The notes under the pieces are model-generated. The model saw only the letters and a program-made list of their open reading frames with translations, made no database searches and was not told where the DNA came from. Of a DNA stretch of 64,000 nucleotides, positions 1-59,350 are shown in pieces (the stretch's first letter is position 1; each line of letters starts with the position of its first letter). Source of the stretch: Escherichia coli (GTDB lineage: Bacteria > Pseudomonadota > Gammaproteobacteria > Enterobacterales > Enterobacteriaceae); NCBI RefSeq assembly GCF_001677475.2, contig NZ_CP015229.1. One strand, given 5' to 3'. The translations under genes and the position numbers were made by a program.

Positions 1-87
1 TGGTGCGAGGGGGGGGACTTGAACCCCCACGTCCGTAAGGACACTAACACCTGAAGCTAGCGCGTCTACCAATTCCGCCACCTTCGC
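1..87 (-). tRNA. leuQ: tRNA-Leu (anticodon CAG), 87 nt, ends CCA
   Basis: Reverse complement of 1..87 reads GCGAAGGTGGCGGAATTGGTAGACGCGCTAGCTTCAGGTGTTAGTGTCCTTACGGACGTGGGGGTTCAAGTCCCCCCCCTCGCACCA, the E. coli Leu tRNA; adjacency to rsmC suggests leuQ. Window starts at the tRNA 3' end. Confidence 0.85.
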
Positions 88-7947: not shown

Positions 7948-8310
7948 TTAATGACCTGCTGCGCGGAGTTTTCCGTCAGGTTCACCGGCAAGAGTCAGTA
8001 ATTGTCCCTGGTCTTCCTGCAGAATAGTCAGGCGACCACCGCGATTGACATACATCGGCGTTTCGGTGGTGTCTTCTTCGGAAATTTTCCCGCGGTTAGT
8101 CGGGCGAACATATGAGAGTTTGTGTTTGATTTTCACACGGTTCTCATCAAATGGTTCGATTTCCAGGTTGAGTGAGACCTTACCTTTGGTTTTCGTGTTC
8201 ATCACACCTGAAGCGACTTCACTGAGAACTGCGCCGATTTTGGTTTCAAATACGCCGCCGTCCAGCTCCCCGATAAATGCCTGCACATCAGTACTGCGTT
8301 CGCTAGCCAT
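7948..8310 (-). CDS. YfdP-like prophage protein (120 aa)
   Basis: Track ORF trimmed to internal ATG at 8310 (MASERSTDVQ...) preceded by SD GAGGAG; synteny with yfdQ/yfdR-like genes. Confidence 0.5.
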   Translation of the reverse strand: MASERSTDVQAFIGELDGGVFETKIGAVLSEVASGVMNTKTKGKVSLNLEIEPFDENRVKIKHKLSYVRPTNRGKISEEDTTETPMYVNRGGRLTILQEDQGQLLTLAGEPDGKLRAAGH

Positions 8311-8944
8311 TTTGCTGCTCCTCATCATATCGACCCTGCAAGGTCGGTTGGTTTCTCCACAAAACAGAGAAGAACACCTGCGGTGGCAGCCGCCCGGATG
8401 GATTGGGTTATGAGCCCGTCGTCCGGTGATGCTCTTCTCTGTTTTGTAAAAAGAGCGGTACCAGCCGGAAGCAAGTGTACAAACTGGTACCGCCAAAGCA
8501 GTGGCTGTTGTGGTGACCGGTGCTGATCTCCGGCTTGCGGTTATTTCAGACTCTCACGGGTGTTTAATTGCCCCGCCGAACAGCTCTTTTCCGCAATAGC
8601 TGCAATGTCTTTCGCGCATCAGCCTGCGCATTCACCACAACGCTGAGAGCACTTAGCCAGTTACGGCACCACACTTTGTCGCGGTTCCATAAATGCCCTC
8701 ATCGTTGCACCCTGGTCTCTTCCCAGGTGTCAAACCGAACCGCCACGCTGGTTAGGCGTCTTATCAGCATCATCATTGACTTGCACATTCCGGCTACCTG
8801 GTTTGTTTGCCCGAGCAAGGAGTGGATTGTCCCCTTTAACGTCCCCAGACCGCTAACGACGCATGTGCCATACGCCGTGTTACAACCAAATTTTGTTAGT
8901 ACCTTGTTTGTTGGTCTGGAAAGAAAGATAAAATGAAGTTGCGC

Positions 8945-9032: not shown

Positions 9033-9725
9033 TTAATTGTGTCGCTTAAGGGTTTGTGACTGGCTGATTAAGACCTTTCCAAAGACCATAAACCGGTGTT
9101 CATTTTCGCTGGTAATTCCCCATTCACGGTAAATCTGGTTATCAGAAATCACCAGTAGTTTGTCAGGTATCATTTGCAGTCGTTTGACATAAATTTTATC
9201 ATCAAAACCAAATACATAGATACCATCTCCATCAAACTGATTGATACTGACATCAACGAAGATGAGATCTCCTGGCTCAATGGTTGGACACATACTGTCC
9301 CCACGAACGTTGATTACTTTAATGTGATTTGCTGGCCGTCCGCCAAACATCGATACAGCATTATCAGTTCTGTATTCAATGGCATGAATCACATCAATGA
9401 CATCACCGCCCTGGATAAGGCCATTTCCCGCACTGGCACTGATATCCAGCATTTCAATACGGAATACATCCTTCACCTGCGCAACATCCTCACTAATACT
9501 GTTTTTACATACAGTATTACTTTTGAAGTCTGAGGTAAAGAGATCAGCAATATCAACACCTAAGCTCCTGGCAATATTACTCAGGGCTTGTTCAGTGAAT
9601 TGTTTCTGCTTACCTGTTTCCAGGCGCGAGATATTTGCCGCATCCACTCCTATTGCTTCAGCGAGATCGGCGATTTTCATGTTCTTCGCTTGGCGAAGTT
9701 GTCTGACTCGATTTCCTATGTTCAT
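9033..9725 (-). CDS. CI-like repressor (N-terminal HTH, C-terminal S24/LexA-type autopeptidase)
   Basis: 230-aa ORF; HTH (MKIADLAEAIGVDAANISRLETGK) and S24 peptidase motifs (GDSM ... KRL). Confidence 0.85.
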   Translation of the reverse strand: MNIGNRVRQLRQAKNMKIADLAEAIGVDAANISRLETGKQKQFTEQALSNIARSLGVDIADLFTSDFKSNTVCKNSISEDVAQVKDVFRIEMLDISASAGNGLIQGGDVIDVIHAIEYRTDNAVSMFGGRPANHIKVINVRGDSMCPTIEPGDLIFVDVSINQFDGDGIYVFGFDDKIYVKRLQMIPDKLLVISDNQIYREWGITSENEHRFMVFGKVLISQSQTLKRHN

Positions 9726-9822: not shown

Positions 9823-10083
9823 ATGCAATCACCATTACGGAATGTGCGTAAAGCGCACGGATTTACTTTGCAGCATGTTGCTGCTGGCGTTCAGGTCAAT
9901 CCAGCGACGCTGAGTCGTATTGAAAGACTGGAACAAATTCCATCTATCGAGCTTGCAGAACGTCTGGCCAATTTTTTTAAGGGTGAAATCAGCGAAATGC
10001 AGATTCTTTATCCGGCACGTTTTCAATCTAGCCAAAACCAGAATGGGTTTAAACCACAGGAACAGGAGATAAGCCGTGGGTAA
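9823..10083 (+). CDS. Cro-like HTH regulator (YdaS-like)
   Basis: 86-aa HTH ORF divergent from cI; SD GGAGG before ATG. Confidence 0.7.
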   Translation: MQSPLRNVRKAHGFTLQHVAAGVQVNPATLSRIERLEQIPSIELAERLANFFKGEISEMQILYPARFQSSQNQNGFKPQEQEISRG

Positions 10084-10627
10084 GCATCACTGGAAAGTGG
10101 AAAAACAGCCTGAGTGGTACGTGAAAGCTGTCAGAAAAACTATCGCGGCGTTGCCGGGGGGTTACGCTGAAGCTGCTGAGTGGCTGGATGTAACAGAGAA
10201 CGCTTTATTCAACCGCCTTCGTGCAGATGGCGATCAGATTTTCCCGCTGGGATGGGCAATGATTTTACAGCGCGCTGCTGGCACTCACTACATTGCGGAT
10301 GCTGTCGCACAGTCTGCTGGTGGGGTGTTTGTATCGCTTCCTGAAATTGAGGAAGTAGAGAACGCCGATATAAACCAGCGCCTGCTGGAAGTCATCGAAC
10401 AAATCGGGAGTTACTCAAAGCAGATTCGTTCGGCAATCGAAGATGGGGTAGTGGAGCCACACGAGCAGACAGCAATTAATGATGAGTTGTATCTGTCGAT
10501 TTCGAAGCTCCAGGAGCATGCGGCACTGGTCTACAAAATTTTCTGCGCTCCAGAAAAGAGTGACGCCCGCGAGTGTGCAGCTCCGGGCGTCGTGGCGTTT
10601 TGTGTCTGTGGAGAAACTAACGCATGA
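10076..10627 (+). CDS. YdaT-like protein (CII-position regulator of Rac-type immunity regions)
   Basis: 183-aa ORF overlapping the cro-like gene; GTG start with SD AGGAG; position and size match racR-ydaS-ydaT arrangement. Confidence 0.55.
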   Translation: MGKHHWKVEKQPEWYVKAVRKTIAALPGGYAEAAEWLDVTENALFNRLRADGDQIFPLGWAMILQRAAGTHYIADAVAQSAGGVFVSLPEIEEVENADINQRLLEVIEQIGSYSKQIRSAIEDGVVEPHEQTAINDELYLSISKLQEHAALVYKIFCAPEKSDARECAAPGVVAFCVCGETNA

Positions 10628-10772
10628 ACAGTTTAACGGCAAATAACCGTTTGTCGCAACAGCTGGTGGTCAGCGTCTCTGAACACCTGTTGTTACGGCA
10701 TGAATGCAGATTACCAAATCACCAGGCTGTAAGTAACCACAGAGAACTTTACCTGACTGTGGGGGGCGAGTT

Positions 10773-10952
10773 GTGCAGGAACTTAACCGCTGGTTTCGTG
10801 ACGGAAGAGGGCTTTATGTTCATGTTATTCGTTGGGAACCAGAAACACAGCGCGTTATCTATCTTCGCAAAGACTACCCGCATGAGTGCTTTAGTCCTTT
10901 GTGGAAATTCAGGCGTGATTTTGTTGAGTGTGACGGACCACCAACACATTGA
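10773..10952 (+). CDS. Hypothetical 59-aa protein (GTG start), upstream of a terminator
   Basis: GTG preceded by GGGGGG; ORF MQELNRWFRDGRGLYVHVIRWEPETQRV...; below the track length cutoff; hand-translated. Confidence 0.3.
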   Translation: MQELNRWFRDGRGLYVHVIRWEPETQRVIYLRKDYPHECFSPLWKFRRDFVECDGPPTH

Positions 10953-11037
10953 TTCTGCCATTCCGGGACGTTACACTGTTCAGGCACCTTATAAAACGGG
11001 TGCCGGGCGTGGAAACCCGGAATTCACCAAAGCGCAC

Positions 11038-11060
11038 AACCGCGCTCTTGCGGTTTTTTT
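11038..11060 (+). terminator. Rho-independent terminator (tR1-like) containing a boxA-like CGCTCTT
   Basis: AACCGC-GCTCTT-GCGGTT stem followed by TTTTTTTG. Confidence 0.5.
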
Positions 11061-11229
11061 GTGTCATGAGCAGCATTACGCCCAAATTATGGTGGGGCGT
11101 GCAGGGCCAACTTCGGTTGGGCCGGGTTCTTTGGTGACCGGTATTTCCACCCCTGTACGTCTCACCACCAATAAGGTCGTGGAAAGCCTTGGTGGTGAGT
11201 TATTAAAAATCACCAAAGAGGCTGCCATC

Positions 11230-11775
11230 ATGGCTACGATCCCAACCCTCACTCAACCTGAAATTGCCATCGTTGATGGTCAGGTTGTTACTTCATCCCT
11301 GGCTGTTGCCAACTTCTTCTCCAAACGTCATGACGATGTACTGAAAAAGATCCGCACGCTTGAATGCTCAGCATCATTCACTGCCCGCAATTTTTCGGTG
11401 AGTGATTACACTGATTGCACAGGTCGCAAACTTCATTGCTACCAAATCACACGCGACGGTTTTGCGTTTCTTGCTATGGGTTTCACGGGTAAACGTGCTG
11501 CCCAGTTCAAAGAGGCATATATCAATGCCTTTAACCAGATGGAGAAACAGCTTTCAAAGCCCGCTGTACCGAGCGACGTTGCACATAACGCCAGCGTTCT
11601 CTGTTCCTACATTTCATCAATTCATCAGGTCTGGCTGCAGCAGCTTTATCCTATGTTGGCAAAAGCCGAATCTCCGCTGGCTGTTAGCTTATATGATTAT
11701 ATTAATGATGCTTCGGCGCTGGCCTGCCTCATAAATTTGTCGCTGAACCCTTCAGAGGTAAGGGGGCGCAAATGA
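11230..11775 (+). CDS. Rha-family phage regulatory protein / antirepressor-like
   Basis: C-terminal part of track ORF 10624..11775; start set at MATIPTLTQPEIAIVDGQVV with SD AAAGAGG; Rha-like N-terminus. Confidence 0.6.
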   Translation: MATIPTLTQPEIAIVDGQVVTSSLAVANFFSKRHDDVLKKIRTLECSASFTARNFSVSDYTDCTGRKLHCYQITRDGFAFLAMGFTGKRAAQFKEAYINAFNQMEKQLSKPAVPSDVAHNASVLCSYISSIHQVWLQQLYPMLAKAESPLAVSLYDYINDASALACLINLSLNPSEVRGRK

Positions 11776-11996
11776 TCCGGAATATTTTCAAACGTTTTAC
11801 CAATCAGACTTTCCGTTGTCCTCGTCCGGGTCAGTGGTACACCACGCCTGCAGGGCATGTTCTACGTGTTAGCCTGGTTGACCGTGAATGTCAGAAGGTG
11901 GTTTGTGAACCGCTGGGCCGTAATTACCGCGTCAGTATGCCGCTTATAGCCTTTTGCTCCGGAAAAAACATGAAGCATCTCGGAGGTGCAGCATGA
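11772..11996 (+). CDS. Hypothetical small phage protein (74 aa)
   Basis: ATGA overlaps with both neighbours, suggesting translational coupling. Confidence 0.4.
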   Translation: MIRNIFKRFTNQTFRCPRPGQWYTTPAGHVLRVSLVDRECQKVVCEPLGRNYRVSMPLIAFCSGKNMKHLGGAA

Positions 11997-19294: not shown

Positions 19295-19594
19295 AAAAAT
19301 TCCTTAATACTGATAACTTGGCGCACTATACACACGTTCCTGAAGAAAGCTATAGTTTTTTGATGGGGTTGAAGATGGCTGGATGTCTAAAATAAACATT
19401 GCTTCATATGTTCAACTATGCGTTAATGATTGCGTCGGTTTGAAGAACAGACGATATACGAAGTAGTTTACTAAAGCAGTTCTCATTTCAGGTGTTATTC
19501 ACTTATTCCTTCTTTGAGTCTCTCCAATTAAGTACGAAGTCGTTTCTGTTATACAAGCCATTTATGCCGAAAGGCTCAAGTTAAGGAATGTAGA

Positions 19595-19810
19595 ATGTCA
19601 AATAAAATGACTGGTTTAGTAAAATGGTTTAACGCTGATAAAGGTTTTGGCTTTATTTCTCCTGTTGATGGTAGTAAAGATGTGTTTGTGCATTTTTCTG
19701 CGATTCAGAATGATAATTTTCGAACCTTATTTGAAGGTCAAAAGGTTACCTTCTCTGTAGAGAGTGGTGCTAAAGGTCCTGCAGCAGCAAATGTCATAAT
19801 TACTGATTAA
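19595..19810 (+). CDS. cspB: Cold-shock protein CspB
   Basis: 71-aa [44 protein letters not shown]...; near-identical to recalled CspB; divergent from the cspF-like gene as in Qin. Confidence 0.9.
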
Positions 19811-20092
19811 AATTAATAGTTTGTCTGTATACGATAACGAAGAAGGCTGATGCCTGAGTGGAGATACAGACAGAGTGGTGAATATTGGATCTCTTTAATA
19901 AATAGTAAGGAGATCCAATACATGAAACAATGGCCAGCATATTTGGCAATAACTTAATCAGGAAAAGTATGCTAACCATTGTGGTGAAGTGCAGGTTTGC
20001 TGCATGAATAGTTTTACAGCAGAAGCTAACTGCTAGCATAGCAAAACAAAGTGCGTAAGTGGATGACTCCCACAAAAAGCACCACAATATTA

Positions 20093-22683: not shown

Positions 22684-23045
22684 ATTAATATTAAATCGGA
22701 TTATTTTTAGCGCTGAATGTGAAATTTAAATAAAAAGGACTCTTCCATGAGTCAAAATCCTTGAAATCTTAAGGGTAAGATAAAAGGTCATTAGACAGAA
22801 TGACACGTTTTATTAATAAATAAAGCTATTGTTTCATTCGTGTGTTTTTCTTTACAAAAGTAATCCTTGCTATGGTTGGTTAATCATGCGTTAATGGTGT
22901 TCTGGTTTGTTACAAAATTATCTGAAGCAGTCATTGTTATAATTTTATTATTTGTACCTCTTGAGATTTCCTTGTTGGTTTTTCTCTCTGATATTTTTTT
23001 CGGACCATTCTGCCCAAGGGCTAACTTCTTCAAAAGGTAATAATG

Positions 23046-23258
23046 ATGTCTAACAAAATGACTGGTTTAGTGAAATGGTTTAACCCTGAAAAAGGTTTTG
23101 GTTTCATCACGCCGAAAGATGGTAGCAAAGATGTGTTTGTCCATTTCTCAGCTATTCAGAGCAACGATTTCAAAACGTTAACTGAGAATCAGGAAGTCGA
23201 ATTTGGTATTGAGAACGGACCTAAAGGCCCCGCGGCTGTTCATGTTGTGGCACTTTGA
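23046..23258 (+). CDS. cspI: Cold-shock protein CspI
   Basis: [70 protein letters not shown] matches recalled CspI. Confidence 0.9.
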
Positions 23259-23461
23259 GGTAGAAAATATTACAAACCATATTCACTTTAGATGCCCGTG
23301 TTGCCATGGTTCTCAGTATAGAACATCATCTTTTGATGTTTCTGACAGGAATCCTTTCGGGGCAAAATGTATCTTTTGTAAATCAATGATGATTACATTT
23401 GATAATATTTCACAATACTTAAATGTTAGCCGTCTGTCGTTAGATTTAAGAAAGTGAAAAT

Positions 23462-51353: not shown

Positions 51354-51929
51354 ATGGATTTCAGAATGAGTGAACAACCACGGACCATAACAATTTATAA
51401 TCTGCTGGCCGGAACTAATGAATTTATTGGTGAAGGTGATGCATATATTCCGCCTCATACAGGTCTGCCAGCAAACAGTACCGATATTGCACCGCCAGAT
51501 ATTCCGGCTGGCTTTGTGGCTGTTTTCAACAGTGATGAGGCATCGTGGCATCTCGTTGAAGACCATCGGGGTAAAACCGTCTATGACGTGGCTTCCGGCG
51601 ACGCGTTATTTATTTCTGAACTTGGCCCATTACCGGAAAATGTCACTTGGTTATCCCCGGAAGGGGAGTTTCAGAAGTGGAACGGCACAGCCTGGGTGAA
51701 GGATACGGAAGCAGAAAAACTGTTCCGGATCCGGGAGGCGGAAGAAACAAAAAACAACCTGATGCAGGTAGCCAGTGAGCATATTGCGCCGCTTCAGGAT
51801 GCTGCAGATCTGGAAATTGCAACGGAGGAAGAAATCTCGTTGCTGGAAGCATGGAAAAAGTATCGGGTATTGCTGAACCGTGTTGATACGTCAACTGCAC
51901 AGGATATTGAATGGCCAGCACTGCCGTAG
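51354..51929 (+). CDS. tfa: Tail fibre assembly protein Tfa
   Basis: [41 protein letters not shown]... matches recalled lambda Tfa; SD GAGGTG upstream. Confidence 0.9.

Positions 51930-58374: not shown

Positions 58375-59350
<976 letters not shown>

What the first reader, a model, noticed from the sequence alone, without database searches (positions are those of the whole stretch)
10628..11229. Possible nutR/tR1-like regulatory block with a small GTG-start ORF
The first ~600 bp of track ORF 10624..11775 look non-coding for the Rha domain and contain a 59-codon GTG ORF with a G-rich SD (10773..10952), several hairpins, and a terminator whose stem includes CGCTCTT, a boxA-like sequence. This may be the early right-operon termination/antitermination point.
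Basis: inference. Interest (0 to 1): 0.4.

Follow-up and report, generated by a model that had tools for sequence, protein, structure and literature searches.

The report
P1/P4-type antisense-RNA switch upstream of rha
The "non-coding" first 600 bases of the annotated Rha gene are not a lambda-style nut site: they hold a real small gene plus a well-known phage immunity cassette, two small RNAs (IsrK and C4) that control translation of the Rha antirepressor-like protein, and gene callers routinely mis-annotate this cassette as protein.

Summary
The Rha domain starts only at residue 223 of ORF 10624..11775. The 59-codon GTG ORF with a G-rich SD is real, and there are strong hairpins and an intrinsic terminator at 11038-11061.

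The nutR/tR1/boxA reading does not hold. CGCTCTT occurs at chance frequency, is not conserved in homologues, and the identical phage record has no annotated N gene.

Rfam places an IsrK RNA at 10984-11060 and a C4 antisense RNA at 11085-11172. The layout is collinear with P1 immI, P4 seqA-CI-seqC and Gifsy-1 isrK-orf45-anrP: promoter, a1/b1, terminator, C4, a2/b2, SD, ATG 11230.

In 16 modules the C4 loops a'/b' covary with their own targets, and b2 covers the rha SD. C4 therefore most likely blocks Rha translation, and IsrK (a1/b1) most likely counteracts C4.

The small ORF is a DUF4222 gene under purifying selection, read in a different frame from the long ORF. The Pfam "Ash" hit is a conceptual translation of the RNA genes.

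One twist remains. The long frame shows no amino-acid-level constraint but avoids stop codons, and it starts on the upstream gene's stop codon. P4 ORF199 has the same layout, and I take ORF199 to be eta.

This is a known kind of system. Interest is low to moderate.

The parts
10624..10627 (+). ATGA overlap: ATG of the long ORF on the TGA stop of the CII/YmfL-like gene (10076..10627), an arrangement typical of translational coupling
   Evidence: The same ATGA-type junction to unrelated upstream genes occurs in at least 6 other contexts and in P4 orf88/ORF199.
10628..10772 (+). 145-nt spacer with no coding signal; contains local hairpins
   Evidence: Variable columns fall 9/14/13 by codon phase. 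Fold z = -1.0. It is found only in relatives that also share the ymfL-like gene.
10761..10952 (+). DUF4222 small gene: SD GGGGGG at 10761-10766, GTG start at 10773, stop TGA at 10950-10952 overlapping the -35 box
   Evidence: Pfam PF13973 E 9e-14. phrog_1343 E 2e-36. Variable columns 10/7/36 at codon positions 1/2/3. The AlphaFold model (pLDDT 85.6) is a small SH3/KOW-like beta-barrel with no significant PDB hit.
10949..10977 (+). Putative constitutive promoter of the RNA module: -35 TTGATT (10949-10954), 17-nt spacer, -10 TACACT (10972-10977), predicted +1 near 10984
   Evidence: It aligns column for column with the annotated P1 promoter P1c4/P51b. It is nearly invariant in 11 lambdoid modules. 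It falls below the threshold of the consensus scan (8 of 12 matches).
10984..11060 (+). IsrK / P4 seqA-like leader sRNA. Hairpin 1 at 10984-11003. Hairpin 2 at 11004-11019 with a1 (GTGGAAA, 11009-11015) in its loop. b1 (TCACCAAAG) at 11024-11032. Intrinsic terminator at 11038-11055 plus a U-run
   Evidence: Rfam RF01394, 67.9 bits against gathering 50. Terminator scan. Compensatory changes in 4 of 13 pairs. a1/b1 are complementary to the C4 loops.
11085..11172 (+). C4 / P4 CI-type antisense RNA (mature form about 11091-11169 by homology with the P1 c4 ends). b' loop GTTCTTTGGTGA at 11126-11137; a' TTTCCAC at 11144-11150
   Evidence: Rfam RF01695, 83.6 bits against gathering 45, E 4e-16. MFE -44.6 kcal/mol, z = -4.1. 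27 pairs, 15 of them with compensatory double changes across 17 homologues. 85% identity to P1 c4 over 55 nt (H82).
11179..11185 (+). a2 target (GTGGAAA) for the a' segment of C4
   Evidence: 7/7 complementarity. It covaries with a' in 16 modules. Its position matches the annotated P1 a2.
11210..11221 (+). b2 target (TCACCAAAGAG, 11210-11220) overlapping the Shine-Dalgarno AAGAGG (11216-11221) of rha
   Evidence: 11/11 complementarity to b'. It covaries in 16 modules. The motif occurs 4 times in the window (3 of them inside the module) against 0.95 expected.
11230..11775 (+). rha, short (C4-controlled) form of 181 aa: Rha-family DNA-binding / antirepressor-like protein. The first ~36 nt after the start are C-rich and G-poor
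   Evidence: Pfam Phage_pRha aa 21-106, E 3e-30. PHROG transcriptional regulator / anti-repressor families. SD plus ATG conserved as GAGGCTGCCATCATGGCTAC. C 37% / G 10% at +7..+42.
10624..11775 (+). Long nested frame (383 codons) running through the DUF4222 gene (in another frame), the promoter, IsrK, C4 and a2/b2 into rha. It is annotated as one 'Rha' CDS in public records
   Evidence: No codon periodicity: 85/84/82 in the RNA part, and 7/36/10 over DUF4222. Stop codons are avoided: distinct stop sites by frame are 0/11/14 from the C4 AUG to the start, 2/9/12 over IsrK, and 0 versus 10 over DUF4222. P4 ORF199 has the same architecture.

Best explanation
The interval holds two things: a real small gene (DUF4222, 10773..10952) and a portable RNA-based immunity cassette. 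The cassette is of the type known from P1/P7 (immI: a1 b1 - c4 - a2 b2 - icd/ant), P4 (seqA - CI - seqC - kil) and Gifsy-1 (isrK - orf45/STnc1160 - anrP).

Proposed mechanism:
1. A promoter at 10949-10977 starts transcription near 10984. This is inferred from homology with P1 P51b and from the IsrK 5' end.
2. Most transcripts stop at the intrinsic terminator (11038-11061). This gives a ~77-nt IsrK-like RNA that carries the a1 and b1 sequences. Partial read-through was shown in Gifsy-1.
3. Read-through transcripts contain the C4 RNA (11085-11172). By homology with P1 and P4, it is cut out by RNase P and 3' trimming.
4. The two exposed segments of mature C4, b' and a', pair with b2 (which covers the rha Shine-Dalgarno sequence) and a2. 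This blocks ribosome binding at ATG 11230. The Rha antirepressor-like protein is then not made in the lysogen or from a superinfecting phage of the same specificity. The complementarity and covariation are shown here. The repression itself is inferred from P1.
5. The a1/b1 copies in IsrK pair with the same C4 loops, in cis or in trans, and so act as an anti-antisense that relieves repression. This was shown by compensatory mutations in Gifsy-1, and those mutations map onto a1 and a'.

The 383-codon 'Rha' ORF comes from a frame that stays open through all of this. It is not a conserved 383-aa protein.
For: - Rfam hits: C4 at 83.6 bits (gathering 45) and isrK at 67.9 bits (gathering 50).
- The region is collinear with the annotated P1 immI features: promoter, a1, b1, c4, a2, b2 and start codon.
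- The same two RNA families sit in the same order in 14 other phage loci, in P4 and in Gifsy-1.
- C4 structure: 27 pairs, 15 of them with compensatory double changes.
- Loop-target covariation in 16 modules: each C4's a'/b' matches its own a2/b2 and a1/b1. Self matches average 17.6 and 15.9 nt against 12.1 and 11.2 for non-self. At least 9 specificities exist, and b2 always abuts or overlaps the GAGG SD.
- In the window, a':a2 is 7/7, b':b2 is 11/11, a':a1 is 7/7 and b':b1 is 9/9.
- The Gifsy-1 compensatory mutants G28A/C162U and G31A/C159U (PMC4825925, Table 1D) fall exactly in a1 and a' when mapped on L021.
- The DUF4222 frame shows a 10/7/36 codon-position bias, while the long frame shows 7/36/10 there and 85/84/82 over the RNAs.
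- The Pfam Ash domain maps onto isrK plus C4. In P4 it maps onto the obsolete 'cI protein' ORF that overlaps the CI RNA, not onto epsilon.
Against: - No expression data exist for this phage. The promoter matches only 8 of 12 consensus positions and was not called by the scan.
- Unlike P1, no icd-like gene lies between b2 and the cargo. Unlike Gifsy-1, the ORF that starts at the C4 5' AUG has no stop and is fused in frame to rha.
- The cargo protein family differs from case to case: Rha here, ORF6N in Gifsy-1, KilAC-Ant in P1 and Kil in P4.
- The biochemical role of Rha as an antirepressor is by annotation only.
- The long frame avoids stop codons, so some translation across the RNA genes is likely. 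The simple 'non-coding' picture does not account for this.
Confidence: 0.85

Rival explanations
1. Lambda-type nutR/tR1. A boxA (CGCTCTT) and a boxB hairpin would load an N-like antiterminator so that PR transcription passes a tR1-like terminator.
For: An intrinsic terminator does sit in the early-right operon, between the cII-like gene and the replication genes. The heptamer CGCTCTT lies at 11043-11049.
Against: - The heptamer occurs at chance frequency: 7 observed against 7.7 expected.
- It sits inside the terminator stem-loop.
- Homologues carry CGCTCAT, CGTAGAT or CGCGCCA there, with compensating stem changes.
- No N gene is annotated in the identical phage; only a Q gene is.
- cro and the cII-like gene overlap, so the canonical nutR position does not exist.
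- The sequence is fully accounted for by the isrK and C4 covariance models.
Confidence: 0.02
2. ORF 10624..11775 encodes a genuine 383-aa two-domain 'Ash-Rha' protein. On this reading its N-terminal ~200 residues form a conserved functional protein domain, and the RNA-family hits are incidental.
For: - The ORF is annotated as a single CDS in PhiR63_1, mEp460, ST64B, cdtI and many PGAP genomes.
- Pfam Phage_ASH matches aa 117-213 at 57.6 bits.
- PHROG 821 and 995 include the long form.
- The frame is open in all group-A relatives.
Against: - Substitutions show no codon periodicity over the RNA part (85/84/82) or the spacer (9/14/13).
- Over 10773-10952 the substitutions fall on the second position of the long frame, because another frame (DUF4222) is the coding one.
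- Peptide sequences across the a/b elements change radically between specificities.
- In P4 the Ash profile maps onto the CI RNA gene. From my own knowledge of the P4 literature (Ghisotti/Deho 1992, Forti 1995), P4 immunity is RNA-based.
- F004 annotators and other group members start the CDS at the post-b2 ATG.
Confidence: 0.05
3. The cassette is an inactive evolutionary relic. On this reading rha is expressed simply from PR, and the RNAs have no role in this phage.
For: There are no experimental data for this phage. The promoter is only a moderate consensus match.
Against: - All four target sites are perfectly complementary to the loops.
- The C4 fold is intact (z = -4.1).
- The module scores as high as those of P1, P4 and Gifsy-1.
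- Loops and targets have co-evolved into many specificities, which requires ongoing selection.
Confidence: 0.08

Closest known systems
Bacteriophage P1/P7 immI region (P51b promoter - a1 b1 - c4 RNA - a2 b2 - icd - ant1/2)
   Same: - The order and spacing of promoter, a1, b1, a terminator-like hairpin, C4, a2, b2 and the start codon are the same.
- C4 is a homologous RNA: same Rfam family, and 85% identity over 55 nt.
- b2 overlaps the ribosome-binding site of the first downstream gene.
- Loop and target sequences differ between phages while staying mutually complementary. This is the basis of P1/P7 heteroimmunity.
   Different: - There is no icd gene: b2 directly precedes the cargo gene.
- The cargo is a Rha-domain protein, not a KilAC-type Ant.
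- No C1-controlled second promoter or operator was identified.
- In P1 the frame from the C4 AUG is closed by stop codons; here it is open and in frame with the cargo.
- The cassette sits inside a lambdoid PR operon rather than in a plasmid prophage.
Salmonella Gifsy-1 isrK - orf45 (STnc1160) - anrP locus (Hershko-Shalev et al. 2016, PMC4825925)
   Same: - The isrK and C4 Rfam families occur in the same order, followed by an antirepressor-like gene.
- There is an intrinsic terminator with read-through.
- IsrK carries a1/b1, and the published helix b-I corresponds to a1:a'.
- An ORF starts at the conserved AUG in the 5' strand of C4.
   Different: - In Gifsy-1, orf45 ends with a TGA overlapping the anrP ATG (ATGA coupling). 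Here the same frame has no stop and continues into rha, as a 47-codon in-frame extension.
- The cargo is ORF6N in Gifsy-1 and Rha here.
- The Gifsy-1 locus lies next to the Q gene, not in the early-right operon.
- The a/b specificity is different.
Satellite phage P4 immunity region (PLE - seqA - CI RNA - seqC - kil, nested in ORF199, taken to be eta; Rho-dependent terminator timm)
   Same: - P4 gives the same isrK and C4 Rfam hits.
- The junction GAGGCTGCCATCATGGCTAC and the 'MAT..' start of the first gene are identical.
- A long nested ORF starts on the stop codon of the upstream gene (ATGA), 75 nt upstream of the immunity promoter's +1. It runs in frame through both RNAs into the first gene.
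- A C-rich, G-poor tract follows the start codon, where P4 timm lies (coordinates from PMC3177188).
   Different: - The cargo is the 65-aa Kil, not Rha.
- P4 CI acts mainly through Rho-dependent termination. Whether that applies here is untested.
- P4 lacks the DUF4222 gene.
- The P4 long ORF has 199 codons; here it has 383.
Lambda nutR / tR1
   Same: It lies in the early-right operon, and it contains a terminator that early transcription must pass to reach the replication genes.
   Different: There is no conserved boxA, no N gene, and no similarity to nut sites. The terminator belongs to an sRNA gene.

Membership tests
C4 antisense RNA (Rfam RF01695; P1/P7 c4, P4 CI) | Covariance-model score at or above the curated gathering score | tested here: met
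   83.6 bits against 45, E 3.7e-16, full-length model match at 11085-11172.
C4 antisense RNA (Rfam RF01695; P1/P7 c4, P4 CI) | Long closing stem enclosing two hairpins, supported by covariation | tested here: met
   MFE -44.6 kcal/mol, z = -4.1. 27 consensus pairs, 15 of them with compensatory double changes in 17 sequences.
C4 antisense RNA (Rfam RF01695; P1/P7 c4, P4 CI) | Two exposed segments (a', b') complementary to a2 and b2 downstream, with b2 covering the ribosome-binding site of the first gene | tested here: met
   a':a2 is 7/7 (11144-50 with 11179-85). b':b2 is 11/11 (11127-37 with 11210-20). The SD is AAGAGG at 11216-21. The pairs covary in 16 modules.
C4 antisense RNA (Rfam RF01695; P1/P7 c4, P4 CI) | Upstream duplicate targets a1/b1 in the leader | tested here: met
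   a1 at 11009-15 (7/7) and b1 at 11024-32 (9/9). The weak RF03163 hit (22.6 bits, below gathering) overlaps them.
C4 antisense RNA (Rfam RF01695; P1/P7 c4, P4 CI) | Released from a longer precursor by RNase P (5' end) and 3' trimming | not testable with these tools
   By alignment with the annotated P1 c4 ends (L016 1545-1621), the mature RNA would be about 11091-11169, with cleavage inside AU|G. There are no RNA data.
C4 antisense RNA (Rfam RF01695; P1/P7 c4, P4 CI) | Represses synthesis of an antirepressor | not testable with these tools
   The downstream gene is Rha-family, and related PHROGs are annotated as anti-repressor.
P1 immI operon architecture | icd leader gene between b2 and ant, translationally coupled | tested here: not met
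   ATG 11230 directly follows b2/SD and opens the Rha-domain protein. There is no separate small gene.
isrK (Rfam RF01394) | Covariance-model score at or above gathering; two 5' hairpins plus a Rho-independent terminator | tested here: met
   67.9 bits against 50 at 10984-11060. Terminator at 11038-11055 plus a U-run. Fold and covariation.
isrK (Rfam RF01394) | Hfq binding and trans-activation of downstream translation | not testable with these tools
   Known only for Gifsy-1 (PMC4825925).
P4-type nested long/short ORF (eta/kil) | The long ORF starts upstream of the immunity promoter, abuts the stop of the upstream gene, and is in frame with the first C4/CI-controlled gene | tested here: met
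   Window: ATG 10624 on TGA 10625-27, 360 nt upstream of +1, in frame with ATG 11230. P4: ORF 8168..8812, with ATGATGATG on the orf88 TGA, in frame with kil. 62 of 64 group-A contexts start upstream of isrK +1.
P4-type nested long/short ORF (eta/kil) | Translation of the long ORF prevents premature (Rho-dependent) termination and makes upstream-promoter transcripts immunity-insensitive | not testable with these tools
   The evidence is indirect only. The long frame avoids stop codons (0/11/14, 2/9/12 and 0 versus 10). A C-rich tract follows the start codon. The P4 experiments are recalled from Forti et al. 1999, which could not be retrieved.
Lambda nutR | Conserved boxA (CGCTCTTA-type) next to a boxB hairpin | tested here: not met
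   The heptamer is at chance frequency, lies inside the terminator stem-loop, and is not conserved. boxB was not searched for separately.
Lambda nutR | Cognate N antiterminator encoded by the phage | tested here: not met
   No N gene is annotated in the 100%-identical PhiR63_1 record; Q is present. This test is annotation-based only.
Pfam Phage_ASH (PF10554) as a protein domain | HMM score above the curated cut-off | tested here: met
   57.6 bits against 26, aa 117-213, corresponding to nt 10972-11262.
Pfam Phage_ASH (PF10554) as a protein domain | Evolves as a protein (excess of third-codon-position substitutions) | tested here: not met
   Changes by phase are 85/84/82 over 10984-11229 in 11 modules. 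In P4 the profile maps on the CI RNA gene.
DUF4222 (PF13973) | HMM score above cut-off and a protein-like substitution pattern | tested here: met
   51.2 bits against 27. Variable columns 10/7/36. 33 homologues in Enterobacteriaceae.

The most novel reading that the evidence does not exclude
The 383-codon ORF may be neither an annotation artefact nor a conventional protein. It could be a 'ribosome conveyor', the counterpart of what I recall as P4 eta.

On this reading it is translated only on transcripts that start upstream (PR, through cro and ymfL), by ribosomes handed over at the ATGA junction at 10624. These ribosomes would run across the IsrK terminator, the C4 gene and a2/b2. That would suppress intrinsic and Rho-dependent termination. 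It would also make PR-driven expression of rha and the replication genes insensitive to C4. Transcripts from the internal promoter (+1 near 10984) lack that start codon and stay under C4 control.

This would be the N-independent antitermination device of this N-less lambdoid lineage. The phage would also make N-terminally extended Rha isoforms.
Probability: 0.4. Interest if true: 0.55.

Novelty: already known. Interest (0 to 1): 0.3.

Why it matters
The cassette decides whether an antirepressor-like protein is made, so it bears on prophage induction and on superinfection immunity. Some sequence from the queried interval (window 10600-11300) matches 2247 of 5426 complete E. coli genomes, with 80% or more of the interval covered in 474. 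The cassette also occurs in Stx-converting phages, where induction controls toxin release.

Public annotation largely misses it:
- The RNAs are read as a long 'Rha' or 'ash family' protein.
- A Pfam family (PF10554) appears to be the translation of the two RNA genes.
- A 2025 review lists IsrK and c4 as separate, unconnected systems.

Recognising that P1 immI, P4 immunity and Gifsy-1 IsrK are one modular system, with exchangeable a/b specificities and exchangeable cargo, allows two things. Immunity groups can be predicted from sequence. The stop-free nested frame also makes a translation-dependent read-through mechanism directly testable in lambdoid phages.

Tried and rejected
- **boxA/nut reading.** Rejected on a frequency test, lack of conservation and the absence of an annotated N gene.
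- **Long ORF as a conserved protein.** Rejected by the codon-phase counts.
- **Universal stop-free 'orf45-like' frame through C4.** I first thought this was a feature of all C4 modules, since 15 of 16 had it. A wider scan of viral contigs showed this is wrong. Only 54 of 89 distinct modules are open. Group B (P1, Gifsy-1 relatives and the KilA/Bro-type cargo) has stops in all frames equally, at 28/30/33 distinct sites. The property is confined to the 'MAT..P' group that includes the window and P4.
- **b' loops alone.** The test on b' loop types (0/14 against 5/24 with an in-frame stop) is not significant (Fisher p = 0.14).
- **DUF4222 function.** The fold search gave only generic SH3/KOW/Tudor-like barrels, with best E 0.05, so no function can be assigned. 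Similarity to the 74-aa ORF downstream of rha is marginal (E 0.084).
- **Spacer 10628-10772.** There is no coding signal and no exceptional folding energy. One stem looks compensated between the window and ST64B by eye, but two lineages are too few to conclude anything.
- **Forti et al. 1999 (P4 kil/eta).** The paper could not be retrieved. What I say about it rests on memory.
- **Promoter.** It was not confirmed by the consensus scan.
Full report
**Context.** The window around the finding is the immunity and early-right region of a lambdoid prophage.
- A cI-like repressor lies at 9033..9725 (-).
- cro lies at 9823..10083.
- A CII/CP76/YmfL-like gene lies at 10076..10627.
- The 383-codon ORF spans 10624..11775.
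- A 74-aa ORF and an O-like replication gene follow.

The DNA is 100% identical to Escherichia phage PhiR63_1 and to a prophage of E. coli strain A3. In both records 10624..11775 is annotated as one 'Rha' CDS.

**Checking the observation.**
- The Rha domain (PF09669) occupies only residues 223-308 of the long ORF.
- The 59-codon GTG ORF (10773..10952) has GGGGGG 6 nt upstream of its start codon.
- A terminator-like hairpin at 11038-11055 with a T-run was found by the scan.
- Two segments fold much better than shuffled controls: 11085-11172 (-44.6 kcal/mol, z = -4.1) and 11160-11240 (z = -4.1).

The 'boxA-like' CGCTCTT is not meaningful. It occurs 7 times in the window against 7.7 expected. At the same position homologues read CGCTCAT, CGTAGAT or CGCGCCA, with compensating changes in the stem.

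**What it is.** A covariance-model scan gave two full-length matches above Rfam's gathering scores.
- isrK (RF01394) at 10984-11060, 67.9 bits against 50.
- C4 antisense RNA (RF01695) at 11085-11172, 83.6 bits against 45, E 4e-16.

BLAST links the C4 segment directly to c4 of P1 and P7, at 84-85% identity over 55 nt. Aligning the window with the richly annotated P1 immI region shows column-for-column collinearity:

| P1 feature | Window counterpart |
|---|---|
| Promoter P1c4/P51b (-35/-10) | TTGATT 10949-54 / TACACT 10972-77 |
| a1, b1 | 11009-15, 11024-32 |
| c4 | 11085-11172 |
| a2, b2 | 11179-85, 11210-20 |
| Start codon | ATG 11230, preceded by AAGAGG |

The same pair of RNA families, in the same order, occurs in ST64B, SfV, cdtI, 1720a-02, phiP27, several Stx phages, two P2-like phages and N15. 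It also occurs in P4, where the two RNAs are seqA and the CI immunity RNA. In Gifsy-1 they are IsrK and STnc1160/orf45. One record (Stx2 phage F004) already annotates both ncRNAs.

**Evidence that the antisense logic is intact and under selection.** The C4 consensus structure has 27 pairs, and 15 of them show compensatory double substitutions across 17 homologues. More telling is what happens to the two exposed C4 segments. In each of 16 modules these segments are complementary to that module's own downstream sites and upstream sites. The actual sequences differ between modules.
- Longest a' and b' matches, summed per module: self 17.6 nt (downstream sites) and 15.9 nt (upstream sites), against 12.1 and 11.2 nt for non-self.
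- There are at least 9 b specificities.
- The a and b specificities reassort independently.
- b2 always runs into the GAGG Shine-Dalgarno sequence.

In the window the pairings are perfect: 7/7, 11/11, 7/7 and 9/9. The b motif occurs three times within the module, and 4 times in the whole window against 0.95 expected.

The published Gifsy-1 compensatory mutants (IsrK G28A with C162U, and G31A with C159U; PMC4825925) fall exactly in a1 and a' when I map them on the Gifsy-1 sequence. The authors' 'helix b-I' is therefore the a1:a' pairing of the P1 nomenclature. They themselves compare IsrK with P4 SeqA, and STnc1160 with CI.

**Mechanism (shown versus inferred).**
- *Shown here:* the anatomy, the complementarity, the covariation and the homology.
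- *Shown elsewhere for homologues:* the IsrK terminator is partly read through, and IsrK in trans activates translation of the downstream antirepressor (Gifsy-1, PMC4825925). C4 represses ant by pairing around the RBS (P1; summarised in PMC12197685).
- *From my own knowledge of the P1 and P4 literature:* C4 and CI are excised from the precursor by RNase P.
- *Inferred for this phage:* the internal promoter fires in the lysogen. Most transcripts end as the ~77-nt IsrK-like RNA. Read-through transcripts yield C4, at about 11091-11169 by alignment with the P1 ends. C4 occludes the rha SD through b':b2 and a':a2. IsrK (a1/b1) titrates C4.

The cargo is exchangeable: Rha here, ORF6N (AnrP) in Gifsy-1, Icd plus KilAC-Ant in P1, and Kil in P4.

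**The small ORF.** 10773..10952 is a real gene.
- It matches Pfam DUF4222 at E 9e-14 and phrog_1343 at E 2e-36.
- It has 33 homologues.
- Across 7 homologous loci, variable columns fall 10/7/36 at codon positions 1/2/3.
- An AlphaFold model (pLDDT 85.6) is a small SH3/KOW/Tudor-like beta-barrel, with no significant PDB match. Its function remains unknown.
- It precedes the RNA module at a fixed distance in 22 of 79 distinct modules, all of them in the MAT-start group.

**Is the long ORF a protein?** It is not a conserved protein.
- Over the DUF4222 gene, substitutions hit the second codon position of the long frame (7/36/10).
- Over the spacer they show no periodicity (9/14/13).
- Over the RNA genes they are flat (85/84/82).

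The one protein-level argument for translation is the Pfam Phage_ASH hit at aa 117-213, and it dissolves on inspection. That stretch is exactly isrK plus C4. In P4 the same profile hits the obsolete 'cI gene product (AA 1-137)' ORF that overlaps the CI RNA. P4 epsilon belongs to a different family, PF25738.

**The long frame is nevertheless not random.** In the subgroup sharing the junction GAGGCTGCCATCATGGCTAC there are 36 distinct modules from a viral-contig scan. The window and P4 carry the same junction. Distinct stop-codon sites by frame, with the long frame listed first:

| Segment | Long frame | Other two frames |
|---|---|---|
| C4 5' AUG to cargo ATG | 0 | 11, 14 |
| IsrK | 2 | 9, 12 |
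| DUF4222 gene | 0 | 10 (the only other non-coding frame) |

- The remaining modules, which include P1 icd-type and Gifsy-1 relatives, show no frame bias (28/30/33).
- In 62 of 64 distinct contexts the long frame begins upstream of the IsrK start.
- The long frame often begins with its ATG on the stop codon of the preceding gene (ATGA), in at least six unrelated upstream contexts.

P4 has the same layout. ORF199 starts ATGATGATG on the orf88 stop, 75 nt upstream of the seqA 5' end. It runs through seqA, CI and seqC and ends as the 65-aa Kil, which begins MATTLTPSHPEF.

From memory of Forti et al. 1999 (J Bacteriol 181:5225; not retrievable here):
- kil and eta are nested genes.
- eta is translated only from the upstream PLL promoter.
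- Nonsense codons in eta cause premature termination at the Rho-dependent terminator timm.

The first ~36 nt after the start codon are C-rich and G-poor in this subgroup (C 37%, G 10%). That is where P4 timm lies (coordinates from PMC3177188).

I therefore consider it plausible (about 0.4) that the window's long ORF is an eta-like conveyor frame. On that reading it lets PR transcripts pass the IsrK terminator and escape C4.

**Verdict.** The finding is a correctly observed but wrongly named instance of a known system. The known system is the C4/CI-IsrK/seqA RNA immunity cassette, here controlling a Rha-family gene, with a DUF4222 gene upstream. It is common, and it is mis-annotated in most of the records inspected.

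Noticed in passing
L010 1711-1899 and 2367-2555 (PPyecE_EH1910); also L053, L064, L104, L127: Some phages carry two tandem isrK-C4-cargo modules with different a/b specificities in one operon. The second long frame starts on the stop codon of the first module's cargo gene.
   Followed up: partly
L011 versus L007 and L008: The a and b specificities reassort independently. Stx2_EH1910 combines the a' of Stx1_14744 with the b' of phiP27. This suggests recombination inside the C4 gene, or convergent evolution.
   Followed up: no
window 10972-11262; L020 8168-8584 (-): Pfam PF10554 (Phage_ASH) and the PGAP product name 'ash family protein' correspond to the conceptual translation of the isrK and C4 RNA genes. 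The P4 RefSeq record still carries a 137-aa 'cI gene product' CDS over the CI RNA. A paper on P4-like satellites used PF10554 as the profile for epsilon, but P4 epsilon matches PF25738 instead.
   Followed up: yes
window 11089-11091: By alignment with the annotated ends of P1 c4, RNase P would cleave between U and G of the conserved AUG that opens the orf45-like frame. C4 maturation and translation from that AUG would then be mutually exclusive on a given transcript.
   Followed up: partly
window 11236-11271: A C-rich, G-poor tract lies right after the rha start codon (13 C against 3 G in the first 30 nt). It is shared by all 'MAT..P' cargo genes and by P4 kil, where the Rho-dependent terminator timm begins. 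It may be a rut-like site that belongs to the cassette rather than to the cargo.
   Followed up: partly
window 11772-11996: A 74-aa ORF (phrog_1153) starts with an ATGA overlap on the rha stop. It shows marginal similarity to the DUF4222 protein (BLASTP E 0.084), so small beta-barrel proteins may flank the cassette on both sides.
   Followed up: partly
window 10762-10917 (long frame): phrog_1170 (112-position profile) matches the long-frame translation across the DUF4222 gene, and some records call this region 'YmfM'. This suggests that ymfM-type annotations are in the wrong frame.
   Followed up: no
window 19434-19873 and 22889-23304: Two cspA thermoregulator (RF01766) matches lie in the prophage late/accessory region, next to cold-shock protein genes.
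   Followed up: no
window 4-87 (-), 227-309, 51697-51895, 59150-59329: There is a tRNA at the left edge (likely the attachment site), an IS009 RNA, and three naRNA4 (REP-derived) matches outside the prophage.
   Followed up: no
window 10655-10695 versus L003: A hairpin in the spacer (CAACAGCTGGTG...CACCTGTTG) is replaced in ST64B by CAACAACCGG...CCGGCCGTTG, together with a 6-nt in-frame deletion. This looks like compensatory change, but only two lineages are available.
   Followed up: no
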